A DNA stretch of 64,000 nt from Vermamoeba vermiformis. Its lineage: Eukaryota. The notes beneath the pieces are model-generated. The model was not told where the DNA came from. It was given only the letters and a program-made list of their open reading frames with translations, and made no database searches. Both the position numbers and the translations under genes were made by a program. The stretch is from the NCBI GenBank assembly GCA_045837725.1, contig JBEWZL010000209.1:248001-312000 (forward strand). The letters are read 5' to 3'. Of this stretch, positions 17,177-48,000 are shown piece by piece (the stretch's first letter is position 1; each line of letters starts with the position of its first letter).

Positions 17177-18648
17177 CTAGTTCTTTTCCTTGACGCTCCA
17201 TTTGTGTTGGATGCTCTCGCTGTTGAGACCGACCATAGGCTCACCAAGGTCCTCGCTGACTTGCGCGAGAATTTTAGGGTCATTATAGTGCGTAGTGGCC
17301 ATAACAATAGCTCTGGCTCGTTTCTTTGGATCACCGCTCTTGAAAATGCCTGATCCGACAAACACGCCGTCCATGCCAAGTTGCATCATTAAGGCTGCGT
17401 CAGCAGGAGTAGCCTAGCATATCAAACATTAGCATATTTCCTTTCATTACGTAACGGATGCAGATCCGCTAAATTTCCAATAAAAATCAATTTGAATTAC
17501 TTACCACGCCACCAGCAGCGAAGTTAACGACGGGCAAACGACCTAATTGCTTGACTTGTTGCACGAGTTCAACAGGTGCTTGGATTTCTTTGGCGTAGCT
17601 GTACACTTCATCGTCGCTCATGCCTTTAACTTTGTTGATCTGATTTAAAATCGATTAGAATTGTTTATAATCGACTACTATTATTTTGTGTACCTCACGC
17701 ATCAATGCTCGAGCATGACGAACGGCTTCAACGACGTTTCCAGTGCCTGCCTCACCTTTGGTACGGATCATGGCTGCTCCTTCGCTAATTCGACGCAAAG
17801 CCTCGCCTAAATTACGGCAACTATAATAAATAATCAGTACCGTAGTAAGGTAGAGCAATTTTCGGTTCAGAACTTACCCACAGACGTAAGGTACTTTGGA
17901 TTTGTGCTTGTTAATATGATTTTCTTCGTCAGCAATGGTGAGTACTTCAGACTCATCGATGTAATCGATTTCGAGGGCTTCTAATATTTGTGCCTCGACG
18001 AAGTGGCCTAAAAACGAATCAGGTCAAAAATTCTGAAGGTTTTTACGATTGGATCTGATCCGCCAGTACGCGATTCAGCAAAACTTATGAAACTTACCAA
18101 TTCTGCACTTAGCCATAACAGGGATGGTAACTGCAGCCTTGATCTCCTTAATCAGCTTCGGATCTGACATACGAGCAACGCCGCCTTCAGAACGAATGTC
18201 TGCTGGGATCTTTTCGAGCGCCATCACTAAAACGATTTGTTAATCTTCGGAAAAATATCGCATATATGTATGTAATATAGACCGCGATTTGGTATTGGTA
18301 TTTTGATTAAAGCAAGAAAACTTTTCGGAGCCGATCAGCTGCATCTTCGCAAGAAATTTTCTAATTGATTTGATTCGGTATGAAATAACTTACCGGCAAC
18401 AGCTCCAGCTTCTTCGGCAATTTTAGCCTATTTAAAGAGCAATCAGTAACAGTTCGAAAGGTAGCGCGATTGTACGTGATTGGAAAAATGCGGATGTAGC
18501 TCGTTATCGATCGACTTACTTGCTCAGCATTGACAACGTCCATAATAACACCTCCTTTGAGCATTTGGGCGAGTCCAGCTTTAACTTTAAAGCTTCCATG
18601 GACTGAATCTGCTCCGTGGCCATTAGCAACTCCGTTAGTTTGCGACAT
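17177..18648 (-). CDS. PDX1: Pyridoxal 5'-phosphate synthase subunit PDX1 (SNZ family)
   Basis: [96 protein letters not shown]. Confidence 0.97.
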
Positions 18649-19086
18649 ACTTGATATTTGTTGTGATTAACTCGTGATGGTCGTTGAAAATAGCTTAAAA
18701 CTGAAATCTTTCTTTATTTGACGACGGAGCGGGTGACACGCAGTGGATTCGCGTGACAGGTCGGTTTTGGCCAATATTCTCTCGCAAAATGATAGTCCGA
18801 GTTCCTTATTTGGTGAAAAGACGCCTCCACGAGCTACAGTGAGTTCATTTTCCGTTACATTTCGCAAATCGAAGATTGATAGAAGATTCCAAGCTACCGA
18901 AGTTGCGTTTATTTCCACTCCGCGTAGATCCACTACAAAACATTTCGGAAAAGTAAGAAACGATCGTCGGTTCAAATTAAGCTTATTATTAGCAAGATTA
19001 GCCCTTAAATAATCGATAAAGTAACGTTTGATTGGGATCGGATCTAACACCACATTTTTCAGAAATTGAAACAACAACGCCAAAAG
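18649..19086. promoter_or_regulatory. Probable bidirectional promoter shared by PDX1 and PDX2
   Basis: 438 bp between the divergent start codons of the two subunits of one enzyme. Confidence 0.6.
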
Positions 19087-20071
19087 ATGAGCAACGTAAA
19101 AATCGGAGTATTAGCATTACAAGGTATAGTACCTTCATATTTAAATATACACGTATTATCAAGCACGAGAAATTGAAGATTCTTACAATTCAGAAAAATT
19201 GTTGCAATTTTAACGCTCTTTTATCAACTATTAATAGGCCCATGTTTGTAGGTGCATTTAGAGAACATATTGACGCGTTGAAAAAAATACCCGGCGTTGA
19301 AGCCTTTGAAATCCGAACTTCGAATGACATGTACGACGGAGATCGACTTAAAATCGACGGTTTAATCATTCCTGGAGGTGAAAGTACCGCCATTGGTATG
19401 TAATTTCAATAATTTATCGGAGTTGATGCTTAATTTTGACTTTTGATCCAGCGACCGTTGGTACATCTAACGGAACCCTCGACGCCGTCCGTCAATTCGT
19501 GCAAAAAGGTATGTATAAATTATAATCATATAAGTCTATAACAAAATCAGCGTGCTCGATTTTAATATTGCACGGCAAAGTTTGGATCTGACATATTTTC
19601 GAACTAGGCAATCCAACCTGGGGAACTTGCGCTGGCTGCATATTATTGGCCAATCAAGTCTCGTCTCAAAAAGCAGGCGGCCAGCCCTTAATAGGCGGCA
19701 TGGATATATCAGTACAACGTAACTACTTTGGCCGCCAAGTCGCGAGTTTTGAAGCAGATCTCGCCCTAGATGCGCTCGACATGAAAGACAAGCCATTTCC
19801 CGGCGTATTCATTAGAGCACCAGCTATATTAGACGTACTTCAGCCTAACGATGGTTCGAAGCCGCCAGTAAAAATTTTAGGTTCAATTCCGAATCCAAAT
19901 AAGGCTAACTCGGACCCGTCAACAACGCATCCGGAAACACTCGTGGTAGCTGCTCAACAGGGCAATATGGTCGCCACTGTATTCCACCCAGAACTCACTA
20001 CTGACACGAGATTTCATGAGTACTTTGTCGAAGTGGCACGGAAGAACAAAGCGCAACAACACCACGCTTAG
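19087..20071 (+). CDS. PDX2: Pyridoxal 5'-phosphate synthase glutaminase subunit PDX2 (SNO family)
   Basis: MSNVKIGVLALQ|GAFREH, DGLIIPGGESTAI, WGTCAG (nucleophile Cys), RNYFGRQVASFE, GVFIRAP, FHPEL. Confidence 0.96.
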
Positions 20072-30857: not shown

Positions 30858-33800
30858 ATGGAGGGAGAAGTCGCGGTGTTACGCGAACAATTACAGCAGC
30901 TGCAGCTCGCTTCTATCAAATCCAATTTTGAGCTGCATTTACGAAAGCAGATCGAAGAACTCACTAAAACTATTCGTAAATATGGCAACGAGAATATAGA
31001 TACAGTGCTAAATAGATGCACGACGATTATTCACCAAACATTCAACCCCGTACCAAATTACTGCGGAATTGAATTATTAGATGATCTCAATCAGCAGCTG
31101 GTATTACGAAGCGCTAGCAATATTATAGACGCACATAATCGCAAGGTCACTATGCCGCTGACCACAACACGTAAGTTTTTCTGGAAAGATTTAAATATGG
31201 ATCCAAAATTTTTCGTCTTAAATCCCGTACAAGATCTACCGAAGAGTTTATTACGTAAATTAATAATATAGAAAAATCATATTATATTTATTGACTAATA
31301 CTACTTTCGTAGCTGACGATGGAAAGAAGTCTTTGCAACAATTCACGCTGCAGAACAAGGATGCGCCAACAATATTTAGCGACATTAACAACGACCCTAG
31401 ATTCGACCACGCACACGATCACCACGCGATATTTCCAAACACAACATCTGGTATTTCTATCGCGCTGATTTCTGACAATTTCAGTGAACAAGATCCATCG
31501 AAAATCAAACCCCGAACAGAAGAAGACGGCAATGCAGAGAAATTAAGGAAAGGTGGAGAAGAATATAAGACGGCAATAATAGGCCGATTCTTCGTATATT
31601 TCATAGATCGACATGAATTTTCCGACGAAGAATTGTGGTTCATTAACTCTGCTTCGAATCTGCTCGCGGATGCAATAACTCGGCATAAACTGCGAAACCA
31701 ACTATCGGAGAGCTCCGAGCGATTCAGGTAAGTCTTTTTTAACCTGTATAAAGCTAAAGCTTGAGCTATTTTTAGACTTTAGCTAATTTACTGCGACAGA
31801 ATTCTAGCGGATTGTTCGCCAGTAATGCTATGGATGACGTAAGTGACCCTATTATACCCTTTCTAATCTATTCATATCTTGCTGAATATTTCTGTTCTTT
31901 CGCGTACCAGCATTAATTTCATTATTTTAGGGACCATTCATCATTGTGCACTTGGTTCAACAAGCCATGGTTGACGTTTAGAGGTCGTTCGTTAGGTAAG
32001 CGTAGTGATCTCTTTTTTTAGAAATCAACCTCGATCGGGTTCAACGATCTGATTTACTTTTTTTGTAGAGGAAGAATACGGCAACGGATGGGCTGAAGGC
32101 ATACACCCTGATGATTACCACCACAATATGAGAATATTTTTGTTGAATTTCAAGAAACGCAAGCCGTTTGAAATGGAATACAGAATGTTGGGTAACGACG
32201 GAGAGTACCACTGGATCCGCCACTCCGTACGTACCATTATCCATAACAATGAATAGTATATACTTATATATATTTAGGGAGCCCCTCGAATGTCCGCTAA
32301 CGGCGAGTTTGATGGATTTATCGGATCTTGCGTCGACATCACCGAAATCAGACAGAGCCGTAGAGCAACATTTGACGCAAAGCAGCTTGAACAGAGCATT
32401 CATGCCAAGAATAAGTTAATTGAGCAATTTGTTACTGACACTCGCGTAAGTCAAGCTCATATACTTTTTGATCCGCAACAAATTTTCCTTTTTAGGAAAT
32501 CCCATTACATTCAAACATTACCTCATTTACCAAAGCGAATACTTTATGATACTAATTATACAATTATGGATTAAGATTTTCTCTGATTGTTTTTTGTTCG
32601 TAGAATCCACTCGAAAGTATTCTGGCGATGAATTCTTTACTGCTTGACATGAACTTAACGCCTGAACAACGAAGTTATGCCGAAGGAGTGCAAATGGGAA
32701 CGGAATTATTGGTGGAATTATTCAGTGATCTATTTGGTAAGAAAAAATTCGGATCAGATCCGGACCAAAAACCTAACTTTTAATGAATAGATCTGACGAG
32801 GAGCGAACAGACTAAAACAGAGCTAGAATACAACGAGTTTAGTGTATACGAGGCTATTGAGCCAGTTGTTGGATTCATCTCTCATTCAACGCGATTGAAA
32901 AAGTTGGATGTGGAATTGGTCTCGTCGATTGAGCCCAAAATTCCGATGCTGAACGGAGATTTGCTTCGATTTAAGCAGATCATTATGAATCTTATTAATA
33001 ATCACTTACTTCGATGCGGCGATGGCACTGTCATTTACATCAAGTAACGAAACGAAAATTTCCTTTTTTGGACATCGATTCTAATCCAATATATTTTCTT
33101 AGAACCCAAATTGGATCGGAATCGGACGACAAATTGCAGCTGAAAATAGATTTCAAGCACGTTAACGGACTTTTACGTGACAATACTCGTCAGCAGAGCA
33201 GATCCATTATGACATTCGGCGAAGAAGCGTTAGGTATGACAATATTAATCTACATTACTATATTAAGCATTGTTACTATTTATAGGCGTTTACATCGCTA
33301 GACAGCTCATTCAAGCAATGAACGGTGAAATTTCGTTTGGCAGTGAGACCGCGACATTCTGCAAAGTGAAGTTGTGGTTCGACAAATCAGATAATAGGAC
33401 CAACAAGTATATGCAAGTGGGTGAGACCCCGGCTGATGCAGACGACACGACGAGTCAATCTGATGAGGGCGAGCCCTTGTTCGGTACGTAGCGCAAAGTT
33501 ACATTTTTCACTTGTTTTCAACATCATGACACGTGTCATTTTGAATCTTGCGTCATTTGCGATAAAATCGACTTCTACGCAACGTGTCAACAAGTGTGAC
33601 ACGCATCACTCGATATTTTTAAGTGTCAAGTTTTTCTTTTCAACGAAGAGGGACCATTTAACTACTTGTGTCATTTGATATTTTTCACGCGTTAAATTCT
33701 TTCGCTGAAATCTGCAGTGCTTCGGCATAATGTGACAATTTTGAATACCTTCTTGCAAGGGAGCTGCAAATTAACGTAGTTTTTATCATCAGATAATGAC

Positions 33801-34343
33801 CTCAGATCGACACAAAGTCCTAGTCAAAGCTGTTCTATTCCCCGCTTCACTCGCGACATTAGAATTTTGATCGTGGATCCGCATCTGGTCGCCATTGACA
33901 CCATCACAGCGTACCTGAACACAGAACCGAAGTATAATATAGATTCGTCTATTAGCATCAATGAGGCTGTCAGAATGATCACGCATAGTCTCGAGACTAA
34001 AACTCCGTACGATCTGATCTTGCTGGATTTCAAGTTCGAAACTTTGGGCCGATTTATGATGCAATCGCATCCTAAAATGTTCAAGACTACGAAGTGGGTA
34101 CCTATTATATTCCCGCAAGATACTTCTAAGCTCGCTGCACTTGAATGGAAGTACAGCAATGTCATTTACAAGCCGATCCGGATGAACAATTTGCTTGAAG
34201 CAGTTTCTGATACTATTATGGATAATGAGAGTATGACTCCCTTATATATGAATTATTCTAATATTTCCAAGAATAACGATTATCGTGTAACTAATAAAGT
34301 ATTTTAATTTCCAGTACAAACTCTGAAAACGACGATGGCTTAG
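30858..34343 (+). CDS. Hybrid histidine-kinase-like protein (GAF-like, PAS/PAC, degenerate HisKA/HATPase, receiver)
   Basis: PAS: SPVMLWMT..WFNKPWLTFRGRSL|EEEYGNGWAEGIHPDD..FEMEYRML..DGEYHWI..FIGSCVDITE. HisKA-like AKNKLIEQFVTDTR|NPLESILAMNSLLLDMNLTPEQRSY. GDLLRFKQIIMNLINN. G|VYIARQLIQAMNGEI. Receiver RILIVD...YDLILLD...KPI. The 3' end is approximate. Confidence 0.85.
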
Positions 34344-37921: not shown

Positions 37922-38843
37922 TTACCAAAGCAAAGTAGCAGCAGCGGCAAGAGCAACAACAGAACCGACAGCAACAGAAACAGCGTCGGACCTTCGGACA
38001 GGAGTAGCGGCCTTAGGAGCGGCAACTGGAGCGGCCATGGGAGCAGCCATGGGAATGGCCATGGGAGCAGTCATAGGAGCGGCCATTGGGGCTAAAAATA
38101 GAAATTAGTTTTTTTTTGAAATATGGCAAGCTGGCAACGGATTCGTACCTTGAGGAGTAGGGACGCAAGTAGTTTGAATGCCGTTGTAAAAGCTACCCAC
38201 GATAGCGGTGGTGGTAGCGTTGGTGCAGACGTTGGGGAGAATTGAGGAGAAGATGTTGCAACCAAACCCGGGAACGCAACTTTCGAACGACATATCGCCA
38301 TTGATGCAGGAGATGGTGACGTTCAAGGGGATGAATAGACCTGAGCCGTAGCCCACAACAGGGGTAAGACCGGAAAGAGCTATGAATAATTGGTTAGGAG
38401 ATTCGATCCGATCGACTTATTGTCCCAAACAATTAACTTACTGCCAGCAACGTCATATCCATTATTTGCGAAATCGCAACCTTGAGCACTGGTTCCCTTA
38501 AATGATTGGAAGCCTGAGGGGATGGCAGTAGTGGGATCACCAACACTGGCGGTGCACTCCAACACCTTGTACCAAGGACCATCAGTGGAGAGAGGAGAAC
38601 AAACATTGGTACCAGCGACTTCTTCGGTAGAACGCTTGGTAACACCGCAAACCTGATTACTCTGCAATACGTAACGGATTAGATTTGGTACCAGCGAATC
38701 TACTTCGCAGATTTACTTACAGCGTAATAACCAATAGCAGCACCGCAAGAGTTATCAGCGTAGGTAATAGTGGCAACGGCAGCTTCGGAGACTGCGACGA
38801 AGGCAACAGCGATCAACGCAACGGCAAACAATTTAGCGAACAT
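37922..38843 (-). CDS. Array gene A: secreted 10-Cys protein with xPMx stalk and GPI-type C-terminus (4 exons)
   Basis: MFAKLFAVALIAVAFVAVSEA signal; KRSTEEV; 10 Cys; stalk APMAAPMTAPMAIPMAAPMAAPVAAPKA; RRSDAVSVAVGSVVALAAAATLLW*. Confidence 0.85.
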
Positions 38844-39783
38844 TTTCCAAGTTGTGGTGTTGCGTTCAGTGCGCACGATGAAAATAAAACGAAATCAACC
38901 GAAAAAATTCTATACCACCGAAAAAAAATTTTCGGTCCGTTGTACGCCTGATTTTGCACGTGTGTCATTTTAGATTTTGTTCTTTCTTTCTAGTTAGCCG
39001 CTAGTAAGAGTACACTACATTCATCGTAATGCTTGACACCTAGAGCCAGGCTAACAGCATTTCCGAAGGCTCAGTTCCAAATTTTAAATTTAATCCGAAT
39101 CCAATTTTAGTCCTGGTGTAATGCTTGAAAATTAATACATGCTTTTTATCGCTTGTGGAACGACCAATCCCTTTCGGGACGTTTCTTAAATTTAATCGAC
39201 AAAAAAAAATTTGATCCCGAATCGAGAGGAGATCGTCAGAAATGCGCATTCAAGAGGCAGCACTCAGTTTCGGGCATATATATGTCAGTATAATAATATT
39301 TTCAGCAGTATTGTAATATCATCGTTTGATTTCGGTGCGTTGCCCAGACCCTGTGACTTGAACAGTTTGTGCCTGGTCGGCTACTCGATGCCATTGTCCT
39401 TCGTCTGGAACCCTCTTCCAAACGACGAGGACGTGTTCGTGTGCGCGAGTCCTGCGAGGGCCCAGAAACTTTTGACGATAATTAACGTAGGGTAGAGAAT
39501 CAACTAATTACATTTACTAACATCATATTAGATCAATACATGCTTGACATCTTGATGTCATTTACAGCAAACGCTCAGTTGACTAAAACAACAAATTGAC
39601 ACGCGTCATTTGGATCAAGTGTCAAAGTGACACTCGAGCACAGCTAACGGCGATTTAATTCTCAAGGTGATATGCAAATGTGAGCCTGGCTATCAGCCGT
39701 ACATTGTAAGACAAGAATGCAGACGTACACTATCTTTATTTTACTACTCTCGAAACAAATTAACGAATAGCACTGTCAATAAT

Positions 39784-40702
39784 TTACCAAAGCAAGGTAG
39801 CAGCAGCGGCAAGAGCAACAACAGAACCGACAGCAACGGAAACAGCGTCGGACCTTCGGACTGGAGTAGCGGCCTTAGGAGCGGCAACTGGAGCGGCCAT
39901 AGGAGCGGCAATAGGAGCAGCCATGGGAGTGGCCATGGGAGCAGTCATAGGAGCGGTCATTGGGGCTAAAAATAGAAATTAGTTTTTTGATAACTGGCAA
40001 CGGATTCGTACCTTGAGGAGTAGGGACGCAAGTAGTTTGAATACCGTTGTAAAAGGTACCCGCGATAGCGGTGGAGGTAGCGTTGGTGCAGACGTTGGGG
40101 AGAATTGAGGAGAAGATGTTGCAACCAAACCCGGGAACGCAACTTTCGAACGACATATCGCCATTGGTGCAGGAGATGGTGACGTTAATGGGGATGGTGA
40201 GGCCTGCGCCGTAGCCCACAACAATGGTAAGACCGGAAAGAGCTATGAATAATTGGTTAGGAGATTCGATCCGATCGACTTATTGTCTCAAACAATTTAC
40301 TTACTGCCAGCAACGTCATATAAATTATTTGCGAAATCGCAACCTTGAGCACTGGTTCCCTTAAATGATTGGAAGCCTGAGGGGATGGCAGTAGTGGGAT
40401 CACCAACACTGTTGGTGCACTCCGGCACCATGAACCAAGGACCGTCAACGGAGAGAGGAGAACAACTGGCACCAGCGACTTCTTCAGTAGAACGCTTACC
40501 AATACTGCAAGCCTGGTTACTCTGCAATGGGTAACGGATTAGATTTAGACCAACGAATCCACTTCTCGTATTTACTTACAGCGTAATAACCAATAGGAGT
40601 GCTGCAACTGCTATCACTGTAGGTAATAGTTGCAACAGCAGCTTCGGACACAGCGACGAAGGCAATGGCGATCAACGCAACGGCAAACAATTTAGCGAAC
40701 AT
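39784..40702 (-). CDS. Array gene B: paralog of A
   Basis: Same 4-exon structure, signal, KRSTEEV and 10 Cys; 8-unit stalk; same C-terminal hydrophobic tail. Confidence 0.85.
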
Positions 40703-41343
40703 TTTCCAAGTTGTGGTGTTACGTTCAGTGCGCACGATGAAAGTGAAATGAAATCAACCGAAAAAAAATATGCATACCCCCGAAAAAAAATTTCGCTCCG
40801 TTGTACCGTGCATCCATAAATAGAAAGTTTGTGGTGTGATTTTGCACGCGTGTCATTATTGTAGATTTTGTTCTTTCTTTCTCGTTAGCCGCTATTAGAG
40901 TATTCTAAATTCATCGCAATGTTTGACACCTAGAGCCAAGGCTAACAGCATTTCTGAAGGCTCAATTCCAAATTTTAAATTTAGTCCGATCCAATTTTAG
41001 TCCTGGTGTGTAATGCTTGAAAATTAATATACGTTTAGTACCACTTGTATAGACGATCAACTAATTACATGTATTAATATCGAGTTAGATCAATACATGC
41101 TTATCGATGATGTACAAGGTCTTTTATCGATCGGTCCACAACTATCGCTCGGTACGTAAAAAACACAAATGTGACACCTGTCAAAATATTTCCAACAAAG
41201 AATGTATATGCGTCAAAATTAATGTTTGCACGAATTGAGTGTCATTTTATTCCACAAATATCAAGTTGATTAAAAATCAAACCCAGATCGAATTTGTTTT
41301 TTACTACTCTCGAAACAAATTACCAAATATCACTGTCAATAAT

Positions 41344-42230
41344 TTACCAAAGCAAAGTAGCAGCAGCGGCAAGAGCAACAACAGAGCCGACAGCAACGGA
41401 AACAGCGTCGGACCTTCGGACAGGAGTAGCGGCCTTAGGAGCGGCAACTGGAGCTACAGCCATGGGAGCAGTCATTGGGGCTAAAAATAGAAATTAGTTT
41501 TTTTGATAACTGGCAACGGATTCGTACCTTGAGGAGGAGCCACACAAGTAGTTTGAATGCCGTTGTAAAAGAGACCTGCGACAGTGGTGGTAGCGTTGGT
41601 GCAGACGTTGGGGAGAATTGAGGAGAAGGCGGTGCAACCAACTGTGGGAGCGCAAGTTTCAAAAGACATATCGCCATTGGTGCAGGAGATGGTGACGTTA
41701 ACGGGAATGAAGCTTTGTGCTACGGCGGCGTAGACCAGAACGGGGGTAAGACCGGAAAGAGCTATGAATTAATTCGTTAGGAGATCGGATCGACTAATTG
41801 TCCTTAACAATTAACTTACTGCCAGTAACTTCATAAGTTGTGAAGTCGCAACCTTCAGCAGTGCTAACCTTCAATGATTGGAACTCAGAGGGGATGGCAG
41901 TATTAGGATCACCAACACTGTTGGTGCACTCCGAAGTCTTGACCCAAGGACCGTCAGCGGAGAGAGGAGTACAAGCAGGAACAGGGGTACCAGCGACCTC
42001 TTCAGTAGAACGCTTCTTGAGAGGAATAGGATTGCAAGCCTGGTTACTCTGCAATGGGTAACGGATTAGCTTTGGTACCAACGAATCTACTTCCCATATT
42101 TACTTACAGCGTAATAACCAACAGGTACCCCGCAATTGTTATCAGCGTAGGTAATAGTGGCAACAGTAGCTTCGGACACAGCGACGAAGGCAACAGCGAT
42201 CAACGCAACGGCAAACAATTTAGCGAACAT
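41344..42230 (-). CDS. Array gene C: paralog of A
   Basis: Same structure; KKRSTEEV; 10 Cys; short stalk APMTAPMAVAPVAAPKA. Confidence 0.85.
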
Positions 42231-43099
42231 TTTCCAAGTTGTGGTGTTACGTTCAGTGCGCACGATGAAAATGAAATGAAATCAACCCGAAAAAATTTTT
42301 TTCGCAGTTGTACGGTGGTGCGTCCAAAAATAGAAAGTTTGTGGTGTGATTTTGCACGCGTGTCATTATTTTAGATTTTGTTCTTTCTTTCTTGTTAGTA
42401 GCTAGTAAGAGTACACTAAATTCATCGTAATGCTTGACACCAAGAGCCAGGCTAACAGCATTTCTGAAGGCTCAGTTCCAATTATTAAATTTAATCCGAA
42501 TCCAATTTTAGTCTGGTGTGTAATGCTTGAAAATTAATATACGTGCTAATTACCGCTTGTATAGACGATCAATCCCTTTCGGGAGGGGAGACCGTGACAA
42601 AACTATGATAATTCGGCTCACTTCGCGAACAACTGCCTTACACGCCATTCATTTGTAAATTTTCTTGCAGCAAAATACTAACAATTATGGAGTTATTACA
42701 AGGCACCAATTGATCTATTTAGCTAAACTATCGACAATTTTTTTTTTTGATCAAATCCGAATCTGGTGGTAGATCGCGAGAAATGCGCAATTAAGTGGCA
42801 GTTTCGGGCATATATATGTAAGTATAATAATGTTTTCAGTATCATTGTAATATTATCGTTCAACTTCGGTGCGACGCTTTGTTCGCGCCCAGAACAAATT
42901 TTTTGATGATAATTAACGTGTGATAGACGATCAACTCATTACATTTATTAACATCATATTAGATCAATACATGCTTGACATCTTGGTGTCATTTTATTCC
43001 ACAAACATCAAGTTGATTCAACACCAAATTGACACGTGTCATTTGGATCAAGTGTCAAAGTGACACTCGAGTACAGCTAATGGCGATTTAATTCTCAAG

Positions 43100-43492
43100 G
43101 TGATGTGCCCACAGAAGATGTACAGATGACACAACTTGGCAACTCCAGCGACATAGTCATGGTGGCATTCAATGCCGACAAGACACAAGTACTCATGCGT
43201 CAGTTGTCTCTGTGCGGCAACGGAATAATTGACATGAACGAGCAATGCGATGGATCTGATGACTGCACCAATCAATGCACATGCGTGTATGGAATGGAAT
43301 TTCGCAATGGCAAGTGTGTCGATGGTACGAAAAAAAAACCTTTCAAGGTCCGCTAATCTTTGCGTTAGTGTGCGGCAACGGAATAATTACCATCAACGAA
43401 GACTGTGATGGCGGGACTGGTTGCAATATGACCACGTGCAAATGTGAGCCTGGCTATCAGCCGTACTTTGTGTCAGACAAGAATGCAGACGT
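43100..43492 (+). pseudogene. Duplicated internal fragment (two exons plus intron) of the 34800-37646 surface-protein gene
   Basis: Near-identical to about 36228-36628 (PTEDVQMTQLGNSSDIV...CGNGIIDMNEQCDG...CKCEPGYQPY). No start or signal exon; fused to the 3' flank of array gene D. Confidence 0.8.
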
Positions 43493-43549
43493 ATACTATC
43501 TTTATTTTACTACTCTCGAAACAAATTAACGAATATCACTGTCAATAAT

Positions 43550-44434
43550 TTACCAAAGCAAAGTTGCAGCAGCGGCAAGAGCAACAACAGAACCGACAGC
43601 AACGGAAACAGCGTCGGACCTTCGGACAGGAGTAGCGGCCTTAGGAGCGGCAACTGGAGCAGTCATAGGAGTGGCCATTGGGGCTAAAAATAGAAATTAG
43701 TTTTCATGATAACCAGCAAAAAAATCTGGCGAGCTGGCACCGGATTCGTACCTTGAGGAGTCGCGCCACAAGAAGTTTGAATGCCGTTGAAAAAGGCACC
43801 CATGTTAGGGGAGGTAGCGTTGGTGCAGACGTTGGGGAGAACAGAGGAGAAGGTAGTGCAAGCCAACCTGGGAAAGCAACTTTCGAACGACATAACGCTA
43901 TTGATGCAGGAGATGGTGACGTTAATGAGGAATGCAGAGTTGAGCACAACAGGGTTAAGACCGGAAAGAGCTGTGAATAATTGGTTAGGAGATTCGATCC
44001 GAACGACTTATTGTCCCAAACAATTTACTTACTGCCAATAACTTCATAATCTGTGAAGTTGCAACCTTCAGTGCTACTAATCTTCAATGATTGGAAGCCT
44101 GAGGGGATGGCAGTAGTGGGATCACCAACACTGTTGGCGCACTCCACCTCCTGGTACCAAGGACCGTCAGCGGAGACAGCAGTACAAACAGGAGCAGTGG
44201 TACCAACGACCTCTTCAGTAGAACGCTTGACAACATTGCAAGGCTGGTTATTCTGCAATAGGTAACGGATTAGATTTGGTACCAACGAATCTACTTCGCA
44301 GATTTACTTACAAAGTAATAGCCTACAGCAGTGTTGCAATTGCTATCACTGTAGGTAATAACGGCAACAGCAGCTTCGGACACAGCGACGAAGGCAACGG
44401 CGATCAACGCAACGGCAAACAATTTAGCGAACAT
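43550..44434 (-). CDS. Array gene D: paralog of A
   Basis: Same structure; KRSTEEV; 10 Cys; short stalk APMATPMTAPVAAPKA. Confidence 0.85.
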
Positions 44435-45031
44435 TTTCCAAGTTGTGGTGTTACGTTCAGCAGTAAGATGAAAATAAAACGAAATCAACCGAAAAAAAAG
44501 CAGCAGTTGGCCATAAATTAAACTAGAATTGTGGCAAAGTTTAAGGCGAGATTACTTTGTGATTAACCAGCAAAAACGCTTTGCCAAAGCATTTCTCATA
44601 ATACGTATTATTATAAAACGAATTGTATCTGACTAGGGTCGTGGTTAAATAATTTTGCCGCCTGATTTGACCCAAAAAAATTTAGCGCCGAACGGACGTT
44701 CAACAGCTGGGTTAACCAGGACAACGATCGCAGCAGTGCCTGTTGAAGATAAGCTAGGGATAGCGTTATACGGCATTACTACGGCCCATTTCCCGACTTG
44801 TTGCTAAAACGTATTTTGAATAATTCGTTTATGTACCTTATTTACAGCGATCTGTTATGGATTGCATCGGGTAATCACTCTGGCTTAATACTGAAGGAGC
44901 CACTTGTCTGTACAGCCATATAATACTCTGATCAGGGAGGGGACACGACTGCTCGTAACGGATAAAAGGTACATCCGGCCGCCGGATATTGCTCCATAGC
45001 GCTACGTTTCAATATTCTTATCAGCTAGCAA

Positions 45032-48000
45032 TTACCTTCGCAATTTTTGTTTCTAAGGAAGGAATTAGTAAGAATGAATCGCTTTTAAGTACGACGAGAA
45101 GGTAAGGTTACCTTATTGGATGTGAACGAAGTCGAATCTCGTTTTCTCTTTTTCGACGACGATGACTGGCCAGGAGGAGCTCTTTTTCTAGTAGGAGTGG
45201 CGAGTACGGGTACTGGTCTATTTCTGGTCGGTGGTGGTGGTTTGGTATGTCGATCTCCTCGGTTGTTTGGCCGTTTCGTTGACGAGCTTTCCTTCTTAGT
45301 TTCTTTTTTGTTTTTGTTCGTAGCTGGCTTAGCAACTGCTTTCTTCTTAGGTACAGGCCGCGCTACTGGCTTTTTAACCTTTTCTTTGGCAGATTCGGAA
45401 GACGAACTTGACTCCGATCGGCTCTCTTCCGCAGAGCTTTCTTCACTTTCCTCGTTGCTCCTGTTACTATTACTCGACTCACTCGCGCCGCTCTCTTCTG
45501 CGCTCGAGTTCTCTTCGTTGCTCGATTCTGACGACGCGTCGCTCTGTTCTTCAGAGCCCGAATCCTCCTCAACACTCGACTCCTCTTTCTCGCTCTCATC
45601 TTCTAAAAATGCATATTAATACTTAATATGCGGCGTTTATTAATATACTCTATATCCTACTAACCTTGTTCAGAGGATTCACTTTCTTGTTCGCTTTCGC
45701 TGTCTTCAGACGAGCTTTGTGACTTGATTTCAATGACGGACTGCCTCTTCTTGTCACTATTCGTCTTTGTGGGAGACTTAGTAGGCTTGCTCGTGCCATT
45801 AGGCACGTTCTTCCTTGTGGCCGGCGACGACTTCTTGTGGACCGGAGACCTACCGTTAGCCTCCTGTTTCTTCGAGGACGGTGCAAGTCGGCCATTGACA
45901 GTCTTCGTGACAGGTGTTACAGCCTTATTATGCGCGTGTCCGTTGATCTTTTTCTTCGGACTTGGTTTCGGTGCAGGTTTAGGCGACGGCTTGTTCGTTT
46001 CTTCAATACTCATTTCATCGTCGCTAGTAGTGCCGGGCTCCTTCTTGACCTTCACGAACACGTGCTTCTTGGCAGGTGCTGGTGCCGGCTGTTGTTTCTT
46101 TGGAGACTTCTTTGAGTCCTTGCCAGTCTGCTCTTTGACAAGGAACTCGTAGATGTCTTGGTAATGAGTAATCAGACTTTTCTTTGCTTGCTCACGCTTT
46201 CGAGACAAATCGATGAGCAGACGTGTTCGCTCCAAGCTCTGTCTGATCTTTTTCAACTGCTTGTACTTCTCTTCATCGACAACCTGACAACACAGAATGA
46301 GCTACACTCGCGATAAGCACGTGCTACTTACCAGTTTGGTGGATCTCTTTCGAGCTTCCTTTTCTTCTTTAACTACCTCTTGCAGTCGAGTAATAAGGGG
46401 CTTGCCGATGAATATGCGCCTAGAGATCCAATTTCGATAACAAACCTCCAGTGTCTCTTTGTCAACATTGATTTTACGTGCAGATGAGCTGCCAAGACGC
46501 GCGATCTCGTCTATTTCTTCTTGCTTGAACTCTTTATGTACAAAGAGATGCTTCTTGTTTTTAGTCAACATACGAGTATTCTAATAATACAAGTTAGAAG
46601 ATCCAAAAAATGAAGTTCAAGTTACGTACGATCGAGTGCTTTATGCAATAAGCCTCCAGCACTGGCGCGAGTTCACCGTGATTCTTGCTCTTTGTTTTGT
46701 GTCTTGCCGTTATCTCTTCATTATAGTGCACGTCCAAGCCTCGCTTCAGCGCACAAGTAACGTGGAAATAATGCTCGCAATCTTCGTCTAAACACTTGAT
46801 ACAAGCACCTTTTCGAATGTCGCAGAGGTAACAGACCTATTCATAATAAAGTCAGACTTCGCCTGTTTATTGTCCTCGAGACCCTTCATATTAAACGCAA
46901 GGAAAGGAATTTTTAAAAATTTAAGAAGAAAAGCTGCAGGCGTGCGCATCCACTTACCGCAGTACGACTTCCAGGAGGCAACTTTTCGAAACTTTTAACG
47001 GCGTACCCGTTAGGAAGTACTTGAATAGGAATTTCATTGAAGGAAAAGGCGCAGGCAAGGTGCACCCAGAGTTCTCCCTTTTTTGGATAAAAAAGGCCAT
47101 CCGTGACTGGACAGAGCTCACAAGACTGAATCAACAAATTAGTAAGCTTGACGATACGACGAAAGTTGTAGAGAGCCACTTACGAGTTTTTTCTTTTCTT
47201 GGCTGCATCTCTCGCACTTCCAGTTCTCCTTTGAGACCTTCTTGAGCCCGCAACACTATAATAATTAGTCAGTAAATTGTCCATCATCGTAATCAGGTAG
47301 TTAGTACCTTTTGATGAGCAGCAACGCGGCATCCTTGGCAAACCAAAATTGGATTGTCGCTGCTTGTCTTGCTACTTGCACAAATGGCGCAAGGTACCTC
47401 ATTCGGGTCCAGGTTTATCGATGGGTTGTCGTCAATGAAAAACAATTTTTTCTGCAACGAATGCGTTAGATCGTCAAGGTTTGATGTAGAAATAATAGGC
47501 GAGCTCCAATAGCAAGAAAAGAGGTGAAAACTGATTTGATGACTATTGATAGCACAGCATACATATTATGAATAGTAAGATCGCCTACAGAAGCGCCATC
47601 CACAAGTGGTCGTGTGGATTTCGTGCAACTTACCTTGTAGTAGACTTCCTTCTCAAAGAAATCGATTATATTCTCGAACTTATCAAAGTTCAAACTTGAG
47701 GTGTCCTTTTTCTTTGCCGGCCTATCGTTCAAAGCTTCGATAAACTCGTCATCTTCGTCATCTATCTCGTACTCTGTGGATTTCGCTACTTCAGAGGCTG
47801 GTTTCTCTGGAAATAAAATATTAACCATATATAATCGCTTATATGGAGTATTCTCGCATTAAAGTACCTTTATACTCGATGTAGTTCTTTGGGCGGGTGA
47901 AAGGCTTTAGTTTCTTGCTGACACCATCGTCTTTGAGTACTGTTATGCGGGGAATAGGAACTGCCGCATTCTATAAAGGAGGATCAGCGAGTTTGAATAA

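What the first reader, a model, noticed from the sequence alone, without database searches (positions are those of the whole stretch)
37922..44434. Four-gene array of variable 10-Cys GPI-type surface proteins with constant ends
Seen: four intact paralogs share an almost invariant signal peptide, C-terminal tail (RRSDAVSVAVGSVVALAAAATLLW) and introns (intron 1 of A and D differs at only a couple of bases). The mature domain differs at many residues and has in-frame indels between ten invariant cysteines (e.g. VPGFGCNIF / APTVGCTAF / FPRLACTTF). Inference: introns being more conserved than coding loops points to diversifying selection or patchy gene conversion on a disulfide scaffold, as expected for recognition, adhesion, prey-binding or antigen-variation proteins. 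I do not recognise the family.
Basis: partly seen in the sequence, partly recalled or inferred. Interest (0 to 1): 0.72.

Follow-up and report, generated by a model that had tools for sequence, protein, structure and literature searches.

The report
Variable GPI-type amoeba surface protein array
Four neighbouring genes encode small cysteine-rich proteins that are probably tethered to the outside of a freshwater amoeba-like cell, and their exposed part changes faster than neutral DNA, which marks an undescribed family likely used to recognise something outside the cell.

Summary
Four intact minus-strand paralogs (37922-38843, 39784-40702, 41344-42230, 43550-44434) each have 4 exons and 3 GT..AG introns of 46-68 nt. 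Each encodes 231-250 aa: signal peptide, about 170-aa domain with 10 invariant Cys, a repeated Ala/Pro/Met stalk, and an invariant GPI-like hydrophobic tail.

Introns diverge by 7-11%, no less than 4-fold synonymous sites (7-18%) or the upstream flank (10-12%). They are not specially conserved; the ectodomain has excess amino-acid replacement:
- dN/dS is 0.72-1.37 in the ectodomain.
- dN exceeds the intron/4-fold rate 1.2-2.9 fold.
- My own M2a-versus-M1a test gives 2ΔlnL of 32-36, and 15-17 after trimming near gaps.
- dN is 0 in the tail.

Informative sites are mosaic (p=0.001), so patchy gene conversion is also real.

No Pfam, PDB-sequence or fold match was found. The family does have relatives: several unnamed metagenome proteins (40-44% identity) and one Vermamoeba vermiformis transcript (30-33%), all with the same architecture. 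AlphaFold models of two relatives are all-beta.

Best reading: an uncharacterised amoebozoan-type GPI-anchored surface glycoprotein family under diversifying selection. Its ligand is unknown, and expression and anchoring are untested. It is a new family of a well-known kind.

The parts
37922..38843 (-). Gene G1 (247 aa). Exons 38721-38843, 38442-38661, 38149-38379, 37922-38091 (stop codon 37922-37924).
   Evidence: Gene model from splice motifs and frame. The spliced product aligns without breaks at the junctions to full-length relatives P0005 and P0013.
39784..40702 (-). Gene G2 (250 aa). Exons 40580-40702, 40305-40521, 40012-40242, 39784-39965.
41344..42230 (-). Gene G3 (240 aa). Exons 42108-42230, 41820-42048, 41528-41761, 41344-41480.
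43550..44434 (-). Gene G4 (231 aa). Exons 44312-44434, 44033-44252, 43752-43970, 43550-43683.
38006..38086 (-). 12-nt tandem repeat (6.8 copies) encoding the Ala/Pro/Met stalk of G1. G2 has 7.8 copies at 39868-39960. G3 and G4 have too few copies to be detected.
   Evidence: Tandem Repeats Finder; protein alignment.
38844..39190 (-). Duplicated upstream flank (5' UTR and promoter region) of G1. Homologous flanks lie at 40703-41065 (G2) and 42231-42590 (G3). Only about 65 nt are shared by G4 (44435-44499).
   Evidence: blastn self-comparison. MAFFT: 288/326, 286/323 and 307/340 identical.
39470..39735 (+). Partial copy, downstream of G2, of the G3-G4 spacer and of the 3' end of the plus-strand Cys-rich ORF that lies beside G4. 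It shows that the duplicated unit once carried part of the neighbouring gene.
   Evidence: blastn: 39470-39675 matches 42901-43108 at 87%, and the G2/G4 unit match starts at 39673 / 43437.

Best explanation
The array encodes four members of an uncharacterised, lineage-restricted (amoebozoan-type) family of small cell-surface glycoproteins.

Proposed architecture, in order:
- a cleaved signal peptide;
- an all-beta head of about 165-175 aa, braced by 10 cysteines and carrying two invariant N-glycosylation sequons;
- an extended Ala/Pro/Met repeat stalk of variable length;
- a C-terminal GPI-attachment signal.
The head would therefore be held out from the plasma membrane on a lipid anchor.

Proposed evolution: tandem duplication of a 1.3-1.4 kb unit that includes its promoter, then patchy gene conversion or unequal exchange between copies, with positive diversifying selection on a minority of head residues. 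Purifying selection keeps the export signal, the anchor signal and the cysteine scaffold fixed.

Such a regime is expected for a surface molecule that contacts a changing outside partner, such as prey or attached bacteria, viruses or other parasites that use it for entry, or conspecific cells.

Shown here: gene structure, paralogy, family membership of relatives, selection and mosaic pattern.
Inferred: signal cleavage, GPI anchoring, glycosylation, surface display, the all-beta fold (models of relatives only) and any ligand.
For: Gene models: 12 of 12 introns are GT..AG with conserved phases.

Architecture: an N-terminal hydrophobic leader ending in a small-x-small motif. The last 12-residue windows have mean hydropathy 1.5-2.4 and run to the last residue, so there is no cytosolic tail. 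Small residues (S, then A at +2) lie about 9 residues upstream. NVT and NAT sequons are invariant. The stalk is a 12-nt repeat with 6.8 and 7.8 copies in G1 and G2.

Family: a profile of the four exon-3 translations found 8 proteins among 1.84 billion. I accept 6 of them (P0003, P0004, P0005, P0007, P0008, P0010; E 3.5e-08 to 5e-04). Full-length relatives P0005, P0011, P0012, P0013, P0018 and P0019 share leader, Cys pattern, Ala/Pro/Val stalk and hydrophobic tail. P0013 is a Trinity transcript of Vermamoeba vermiformis in EukProt, so at least one relative is transcribed.

Selection. M2a puts 5-16% of codons at omega of about 6-14 and 43-57% at omega 0.

Variants seen in two other samples: 3 intronic, 6 synonymous, 3 replacement. 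One replacement lies at a high-posterior site (G3 codon 80). The MK-like contrast with paralog differences gives p=0.007 to 0.024.

Mosaicism.

Fold: AlphaFold models of P0005 (mean pLDDT 69.4; residues 100-180 at 81-94) and P0013 (71.9) give the same order of about 11 strands.
Against: No expression data exist for these four copies.

No GPI or signal-peptide predictor was available, so those calls rest on inspection.

The site-model test is my own implementation on only 4 sequences. Recombination, which is demonstrably present, together with multi-nucleotide changes and alignment error, can inflate such tests. Against plain NG86 dS the pairwise ratio is not significantly above 1 (p 0.18-0.91).

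4-fold sites in conserved codons may be a biased, more recently homogenised subset.

Variable positions are not enriched outside predicted strands (38/85 in strands versus 33/76 elsewhere), so the 'variable loops on a scaffold' picture is not supported at secondary-structure level.

The AlphaFold models are of relatives with 30-44% identity, and the five models of each run disagree (mean pLDDT 47-72).

The variants from other samples may come from paralogs rather than alleles.
Confidence: 0.6

Rival explanations
1. There is no adaptive diversification. The copies are recent duplicates whose head domain is only weakly constrained (omega near 1 at half of the sites). The apparent omega>1 class is an artefact of gene conversion, multi-nucleotide mutations and alignment near indels.
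For: M0 omega is 0.88 and pairwise NG86 omega is 0.72-1.37, not significantly above 1. Recombination is demonstrated. Several top sites sit beside indels. The LRT halves after gap trimming.
Against: The LRT stays at 15.2-17.3 (2 df) after trimming, on all three topologies. The maximum null value was 6.0 in 14 simulations. dN exceeds the intron plus 4-fold rate up to 2.9 fold. About half of the codons are at omega 0, and all ORFs, splice sites and Cys are intact. The MK-like contrast also argues against it.
Confidence: 0.17
2. The proteins are structural components of the cyst wall or of an extracellular coat. The C-terminal signal would serve only as a transient anchor before release or cross-linking, as in fungal wall mannoproteins. 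The array would exist for dosage rather than for diversity.
For: The features fit wall or coat proteins as well: small size, disulfide richness, N-glycosylation sequons, a Pro-rich repeat stalk, and tandem copies with conserved promoters. The only named relative comes from an amoeba species that I recall forms cysts; no call checked this.
Against: A dosage array should be homogenised, yet the heads differ at 15-36% of residues with omega around 1 or above. No similarity to any known wall protein family was found.
Confidence: 0.12
3. The array is an antigen-variation-like coat. One copy would be expressed at a time and the cell would switch between them, as in the ciliate immobilisation antigens.
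For: The proteins are GPI-type, Cys-rich and variable, the organism is probably free-living, and the copies have near-identical promoters and ends. Ciliate precedents are PMC4136848 and PMC4235209; I saw only their abstracts in the search listing.
Against: Only four copies were seen. There are no expression data and no periodic Cys repeats. The copies lie among ordinary housekeeping genes; I did not examine whether the window is near a chromosome end.
Confidence: 0.06
4. The head is a small up-and-down beta-barrel that binds a small ligand, in the manner of avidin or fatty-acid-binding proteins, and acts as a surface-bound scavenger.
For: VIA-align hits to avidins, FABPs and designed beta-barrels cover residues of about 85-185 of both models (Z 3.5-5.7).
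Against: These Z values are at the stated background level (typical best Z is 7-8 for unmatched models). Secretin sheets score higher (Z 6.7-7.1). Foldseek gives nothing at E<=0.001. Diversifying selection is not expected for a conserved small-ligand pocket.
Confidence: 0.05

Closest known systems
Unnamed relatives of the same family: metagenome proteins P0005, P0011, P0012, P0018, P0019 and the Vermamoeba vermiformis transcript P0013 (EukProt EP00029)
   Same: Same length (237-243 aa). Same leader, conserved Cys positions and motifs around the KRS, GWQ-like, N-x-T-x-S-C and QT(S/T)C sites, Ala/Pro-rich stalk and terminal hydrophobic tail. Identity to G1-G4 is 27-44% (40-44% to P0005, 30-33% to P0013).
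   Different: Their stalk uses Ala-Pro-Val rather than Ala-Pro-Met units. All are annotated only as hypothetical or carry no name. No function, structure or paper is attached to any of them.
Ciliate GPI-linked cysteine-rich surface (immobilisation) antigens: Tetrahymena Ser family, Paramecium surface antigens
   Same: They are GPI-linked, Cys-rich, variable multigene surface proteins of free-living protists (abstracts of PMC4136848 and PMC4235209, seen in the listing).
   Different: From recall: the ciliate proteins are much larger, are built of periodic Cys repeats, and are expressed one at a time. Here there is a single domain of about 170 aa with non-periodic Cys spacing. No sequence or profile similarity was found, and the expression mode is unknown.
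Dictyostelium globular-head / Pro-rich stalk / GPI-anchor adhesion and spore-coat antigens (csA/gp80, PsA); recalled, not from a call
   Same: The overall layout of head, proline-rich stalk and lipid anchor, in an amoebozoan.
   Different: There is no Pfam link. Membership was not tested.
Dictyostelium TgrB1/TgrC1 allorecognition proteins
   Same: They are rapidly diversifying amoebozoan surface recognition genes lying side by side (abstract of PMC12745789 in the listing).
   Different: From recall: these are large transmembrane proteins with IPT/TIG-type domains, not small GPI-type 10-Cys proteins. No similarity was detected.
Counting factor-associated protein domain CfaA_B_C (PF11912)
   Same: A cluster in which 37% of members carry PF11912 (commonest phylum Evosea) was the second-nearest ESM-Atlas cluster to the P0005 head (score 0.76).
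   Different: The score is below the tool's lead threshold. PF11912 gave no hit at E<=10 in 7 of 7 full-length relatives or in 6 of 6 window exon translations.

Membership tests
GPI-anchored surface protein (signal architecture) | N-terminal cleavable signal peptide | tested here: met
   By inspection only, since no predictor was available. The leader is 21 residues with a hydrophobic core and small residues at -3/-1, nearly invariant in the 4 copies. It is shared by 6 full-length relatives.
GPI-anchored surface protein (signal architecture) | C-terminal hydrophobic stretch that ends the protein (no cytosolic tail), preceded by a short spacer and small omega / omega+2 residues | tested here: met
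   Mean Kyte-Doolittle hydropathy is 1.5-2.4 for 12-residue windows over the last 22 residues, and the protein ends in that stretch. S and A (+2) lie about 9 residues upstream. This is a rule-of-thumb check, not PredGPI or NetGPI.
GPI-anchored surface protein (signal architecture) | Actual lipid anchor and surface location | not testable with these tools
   Needs PI-PLC release, detergent partitioning or localisation.
The new 10-Cys family (P0005 / P0013 type) | Significant profile match plus shared Cys pattern and domain order | tested here: met
   The exon-3 profile gave E 3.5e-08 to 5e-04 for 6 accepted hits out of 8 listed. Full-length alignment gives 27-44% identity with aligned Cys.
Any Pfam-A family, including CfaA_B_C (PF11912) and MBG_2 (PF18676) | Score at or above the family's gathering threshold | tested here: not met
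   No family reached its threshold. This holds for 6 of 6 window exon translations and for all distinct relatives scanned. The MBG_2-rich hit P0006 aligns to the exon-3 profile with hhalign probability 0.8%.
Ciliate immobilisation-antigen type (definition recalled) | Periodic cysteine repeats in a large ectodomain | tested here: not met
   There are 10 Cys in one domain of about 170 aa. Spacings in G1 are 13, 16, 15, 26, 36, 10, 6, 11 and 20 residues.
Ciliate immobilisation-antigen type (definition recalled) | Mutually exclusive expression | not testable with these tools
   No usable RNA data were available.
Known beta folds (secretin sheet, avidin/FABP-type barrels) | Structural match clearly above background that covers the domain | tested here: inconclusive
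   Best Z was 6.7 (rmsd 3.2, 81 residues aligned) and 7.1 (rmsd 4.6, 93 aligned), both to 5w68_A, covering only the C-terminal half. The stated background is Z 7-8. Foldseek found 0 matches at E<=0.001.

The most novel reading that the evidence does not exclude
The family is a previously undescribed beta-fold receptor on tubulinid amoebae. It would be locked in an arms race with agents that attach to or enter the cell through it, such as amoeba-infecting giant viruses or intracellular bacteria. It could equally be the amoeba's own discriminating receptor for prey. On either view the tandem array plus gene conversion acts as a small diversity generator for the binding face.
Probability: 0.12. 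Interest if true: 0.75.

Novelty: new variant of a known kind. Interest (0 to 1): 0.45.

Why it matters
Free-living amoebae are hosts and training grounds for giant viruses and intracellular bacteria, yet little is known of the proteins on their surface. This array gives a concrete candidate: a small, easily expressed family with no known domain, with clear marks of export and lipid anchoring, and with a selection signature pointing to contact with a changing partner. If the head proves to be a receptor or an adhesion or recognition module, it would open a testable route to how these amoebae bind prey or are entered by parasites. If it is only a coat or wall protein, it is still a new protein family, possibly with a new fold. 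The general pattern is already familiar from ciliates, apicomplexans and trypanosomatids: a tandem array of GPI-type, Cys-rich surface proteins evolving by positive selection and conversion.

Tried and rejected
I then used single exons by window reference and kept spliced sequences inside scripts.
- Own-genome search: no genome is held for this window, so a genome-wide copy count could not be done.
- Word-based search with exon 3, lengths 'longer': 45 candidates, none scored.
- ESM Atlas: no usable hit for exon 3. For the P0005 head, only sub-threshold leads of 0.75-0.77.
- PDB sequence search with the family profile: 6 rows, all ribosomal P0/uL10 at E 0.067-0.23 over the Ala/Pro-rich part. 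Rejected as compositional.
- Foldseek against PDB (two models) and BFVD (one model): 0 matches at E<=0.001 in each.
- VIA-align wide, twice: best Z 6.7 and 7.1, which is background level.
- Two metagenome-contig scans (family profile A3; exon-3 alignment A1): 55 and 189 pattern matches, none confirmed by tblastn. No DNA of relatives was obtained, so dN/dS could not be extended beyond 4 sequences.
- P0006 (a bacterial protein with 30 MBG_2 repeats) and P0009, both among the 8 profile hits, were rejected: hhalign probabilities 0.8% and 4.2%, and the Cys do not align. P0014 and P0020-P0024 match only the Ala/Pro stalk, or were not examined, and were not used.
- Expression: no RNA holder is listed for the stretch. 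Two RNA runs with the same species label gave 1 and 0 reads at 97% likeness, with about 46-48% of each run read. The organism's presence in those runs was not shown, so this is no test.
- Earlier findings of this scan: three look-ups, nothing to show.
- Paper searches found nothing on this family: 'Vermamoeba vermiformis' with GPI-anchored / cysteine-rich, and amoeba / GPI-anchored / tandem / positive selection / surface protein. A 'find' for GPI and surface in PMC7125106 and PMC10980511 gave no protein-related passage.
- Variable sites are not enriched in predicted loops, so I dropped the 'loops only' picture.

Full report
WHAT IS THERE

The window is eukaryotic. GC content is about 0.36-0.45. 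Split genes with ordinary domains surround the array: 2-oxoglutarate dehydrogenase E1, a C2-domain kinase, SNZ/SNO, SAM, EPL1, SPC22 and ankyrin.

On the minus strand between 37922 and 44434 lie four genes, found through their identical start and end motifs and modelled from frames and splice motifs:
- G1 37922-38843
- G2 39784-40702
- G3 41344-42230
- G4 43550-44434

Each gene has four exons. The three introns are 46-68 nt long, 12 of 12 are GT..AG, and their phases are 0/1/1 at the same alignment positions.

The proteins are 247, 250, 240 and 231 aa. All have exactly 10 Cys in invariant columns and two invariant N-x-T sequons. The 21-residue leader has one substitution in one copy, and the last 36 residues are identical in all four. 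The quoted loop variants, the in-frame indels and the two-base difference between intron 1 of G1 and G4 are all present.

THE DUPLICATED UNIT

The units match each other over 1.0-1.38 kb at 81-87% identity. The match includes about 340 nt upstream of G1, G2 and G3 (88-90% identical) but only about 65 nt upstream of G4, which is the edge of the array. No other copy lies in the window.

The stalk between the Cys domain and the tail is a 12-nt tandem repeat. It has 6.8 copies in G1 and 7.8 in G2, and too few in G3 and G4 to be detected.

Downstream of G2 lies a partial copy of the G3-G4 spacer and of the 3' end of a plus-strand Cys-rich ORF that sits beside G4. So an earlier duplication carried part of the neighbour.

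ARE INTRONS MORE CONSERVED THAN CODING SEQUENCE?

In raw identity, yes: introns are 86-100% identical, against 80-94% for exons 2 and 3. But intron divergence (12-18 differences in 161-178 sites, 7-11%) is not lower than divergence at 4-fold sites of codons whose amino acid is conserved (4-10 in 55-79 sites, 7-18%; Fisher p 0.14-1.0). Nor is it lower than that of the upstream flank (10-12%). The introns therefore look neutral. What is unusual is the number of amino-acid replacements: 15-36% of ectodomain residues differ.

SELECTION

Nei-Gojobori estimates:
- Ectodomain: dN 0.10-0.24, dS 0.09-0.24, ratio 0.72-1.37.
- Tail: dN 0, dS 0.06-0.10.
- Leader: dN 0-0.02.

The constant ends are thus kept by purifying selection at roughly the neutral level of silent change, not by extra homogenisation.

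Against introns plus 4-fold sites, ectodomain dN is 1.2-2.9 times higher. One-sided Fisher p ranges from 1.6e-05 to 0.026 in 5 of 6 pairs and is 0.29 for G1-G2. The pairs are not independent. Against NG86 dS itself the excess is not significant (p 0.18-0.91).

I wrote a GY94/F3x4 site-model likelihood for the 4-taxon tree. M0 omega is 0.88 on the best tree (0.86 on the other two). M2a beats M1a by 2ΔlnL = 32.5, 34.9 and 35.6 on the three possible topologies. On the best tree (G1,G2),(G3,G4), 7% of codons sit at omega of about 14; on the other two trees, about 15% sit at omega of about 6. On all trees 43-50% of codons are at omega 0.

Controls:
- Fourteen data sets simulated under the fitted M1a gave LRTs of at most 6.0.
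- After removing every codon within 4 of a gap (180 of 258 columns kept), the LRT is still 15.2-17.3.

Sites with posterior above 0.8 are alignment columns 29, 34, 52, 79, 80, 182 and 184.

Caveats: there are only four sequences, the code is my own, recombination is known to be present, and multi-nucleotide changes are possible.

GENE CONVERSION

Of 47 parsimony-informative sites, 22 support G1G2|G3G4, 13 support G1G3|G2G4 and 12 support G1G4|G2G3. They are clustered along the unit:
- exon 1: six G1G3|G2G4 sites;
- intron 1 and intron 3 / exon 4: G1G4|G2G3;
- exons 2-3: 21 G1G2|G3G4 sites;
- 3' flank: G1G3|G2G4.

Adjacent-same counts are 26 against 15.9 expected (p=0.001). G1 and G2 share a run of 23 concordant polymorphic sites in exon 2, reached by 0 of 5000 permutations. 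G2-G4 share the 3' flank (p=0.019). The copies are therefore mosaics.

OTHER SAMPLES

Contigs of two DNA runs from other studies cover parts of the array at 97-100% identity, with depth in 24 and 19 of 30 bins. Within the genes they show 12 differences: 3 intronic, 6 synonymous and 3 replacement. One replacement is at G3 codon 80, a high-posterior site, and another (G4 codon 48) lies next to one.

Set against paralog differences (75 or 61 replacement, 20 or 23 silent), this gives an MK-like Fisher p of 0.007 and 0.024. This is only suggestive, because the contigs may stem from paralogs. Both runs also lack 124 nt of the G3-G4 spacer.

RELATIVES

No Pfam family reaches its threshold for six exon translations. 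A profile of the four exon-3 translations (A1) searched against 1.84 billion representatives gave 8 hits. Six are real family members. Two are rejected: a bacterial MBG_2 repeat protein and one other, with hhalign probabilities 0.8% and 4.2%.

Further searches from the full-length hit P0005 and from a family alignment (A3) gave P0011, P0012, P0013, P0018, P0019 and close variants. All are 237-248 aa with the same order of parts. G1-G4 are 40-44% identical to P0005 and 30-33% identical to P0013.

P0013 is a Trinity transcript of Vermamoeba vermiformis in EukProt; the others are unnamed metagenome proteins. P0012 and P0018 both list a longest contig of 8,360 nt. That hints that paralogs may be neighbours there too, but does not show it.

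The named relative suggests that the window comes from an amoebozoan of that general type. So do the window's GC content and three introns per gene, compared with 41.7% GC and 3.5 introns per gene reported for V. vermiformis (PMC7125106, passages). Pieces of the array also turn up in water metagenomes. This placement is inference. I did not try to name the record.

FOLD

AlphaFold2 on P0005, with a 20-row alignment including the window's exons, gave mean pLDDT 69.4, rising to 81-94 over residues 100-180. On P0013 it gave 71.9. Both models are all-beta with the same succession of about 11 strands, and the stalk and tail are disordered.

No fold match stands out:
- Foldseek found nothing at E<=0.001 in the PDB or BFVD.
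- VIA-align's best matches (secretin sheets at Z 6.7 and 7.1, then avidin/FABP-like and designed barrels at Z 4-6) cover only the C-terminal half and lie at the tool's stated background level.
- The PDB sequence search gave only compositional hits to the stalk.

Positions that vary among G1-G4 are as frequent in predicted strands (38/85) as elsewhere (33/76).

HOW IT MOST LIKELY WORKS

The protein enters the secretory pathway through its leader. The C-terminal hydrophobic stretch ends the protein, with small residues about 9 positions upstream, and would be exchanged for a GPI anchor. The glycosylated, disulfide-braced beta head would then be displayed on an Ala/Pro/Met stalk whose length changes by repeat slippage.

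The array diversifies the head by point substitution under positive selection and reshuffles segments by conversion. Selection holds the export signal, anchor signal, scaffold cysteines and glycosylation sites fixed. That regime points to contact with a changing external partner.

Which partner it is (prey, parasites and viruses, or conspecific cells) cannot be decided here. Anchoring, localisation, glycosylation and expression of these four copies are all inferred.

COMPARISON AND NOVELTY

In kind, this resembles the GPI-linked Cys-rich variable surface proteins of free-living ciliates (abstracts of PMC4136848 and PMC4235209 in the listing). It also recalls the head-stalk-GPI layout of some Dictyostelium adhesion proteins, though that comparison is recalled and untested. 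It is not a member of any of them by any test I could run, and no paper on the family was found.

It is a new, small, lineage-restricted family of a well-known kind. I score interest at 0.45. The evolutionary signature is clear and the family is undescribed, but the pattern itself is familiar and the function is open.

Noticed in passing
window 43081-43526 (+), with a partial copy at 39470-39735: A plus-strand Cys-rich ORF convergent on G4, in two pieces, carrying two C-G-N-G-I-I...C-D-G type repeats. It has no Pfam hit at E<=1e-4. Its 3' end and the spacer before it are copied downstream of G2 at 87% identity, which records the history of the duplications.
   Followed up: partly
window 42543-42666: Contigs of two DNA runs from other studies (X4, X5) skip these 124 nt of the G3-G4 spacer, a structural polymorphism. 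Neither run shows any depth over 38488-39475 (the 5' part of G1 and its upstream flank), which may or may not mean that this part differs there.
   Followed up: no
protein P0010 (111 aa, NCBI source), compared with intron 3 of G1-G4 (e.g. window 38092-38148): P0010 looks like a mis-joined gene model of a relative. It has a leader, then only the last part of the Cys domain, then seven residues that resemble the read-through translation of the first bases of the window's intron 3, then stalk and tail. Either that intron start is conserved across species, or it is coding in that species.
   Followed up: no
window 38006-38086 and 39868-39960: The stalk is a 12-nt repeat with different copy numbers in the four genes. 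The stalk therefore differs in length by up to about 16 residues between copies.
   Followed up: partly
window 45088-45616 and 45660-46301: Long open frames on both strands over the same stretch (176 aa each way, then 213 and 162 aa). None has a Pfam hit. The cause is unexplained; it may be compositional.
   Followed up: no
window 18364-20068: A divergently placed pair of pyridoxal-phosphate synthase subunit genes (SOR/SNZ on the minus strand, SNO on the plus strand). This is an ordinary head-to-head arrangement.
   Followed up: no
window 33780-34304 (+): An ORF with a weak response-regulator receiver domain match (24.6 bits, below the 30.2 cut-off). This would fit a hybrid histidine-kinase type gene.
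   Followed up: no
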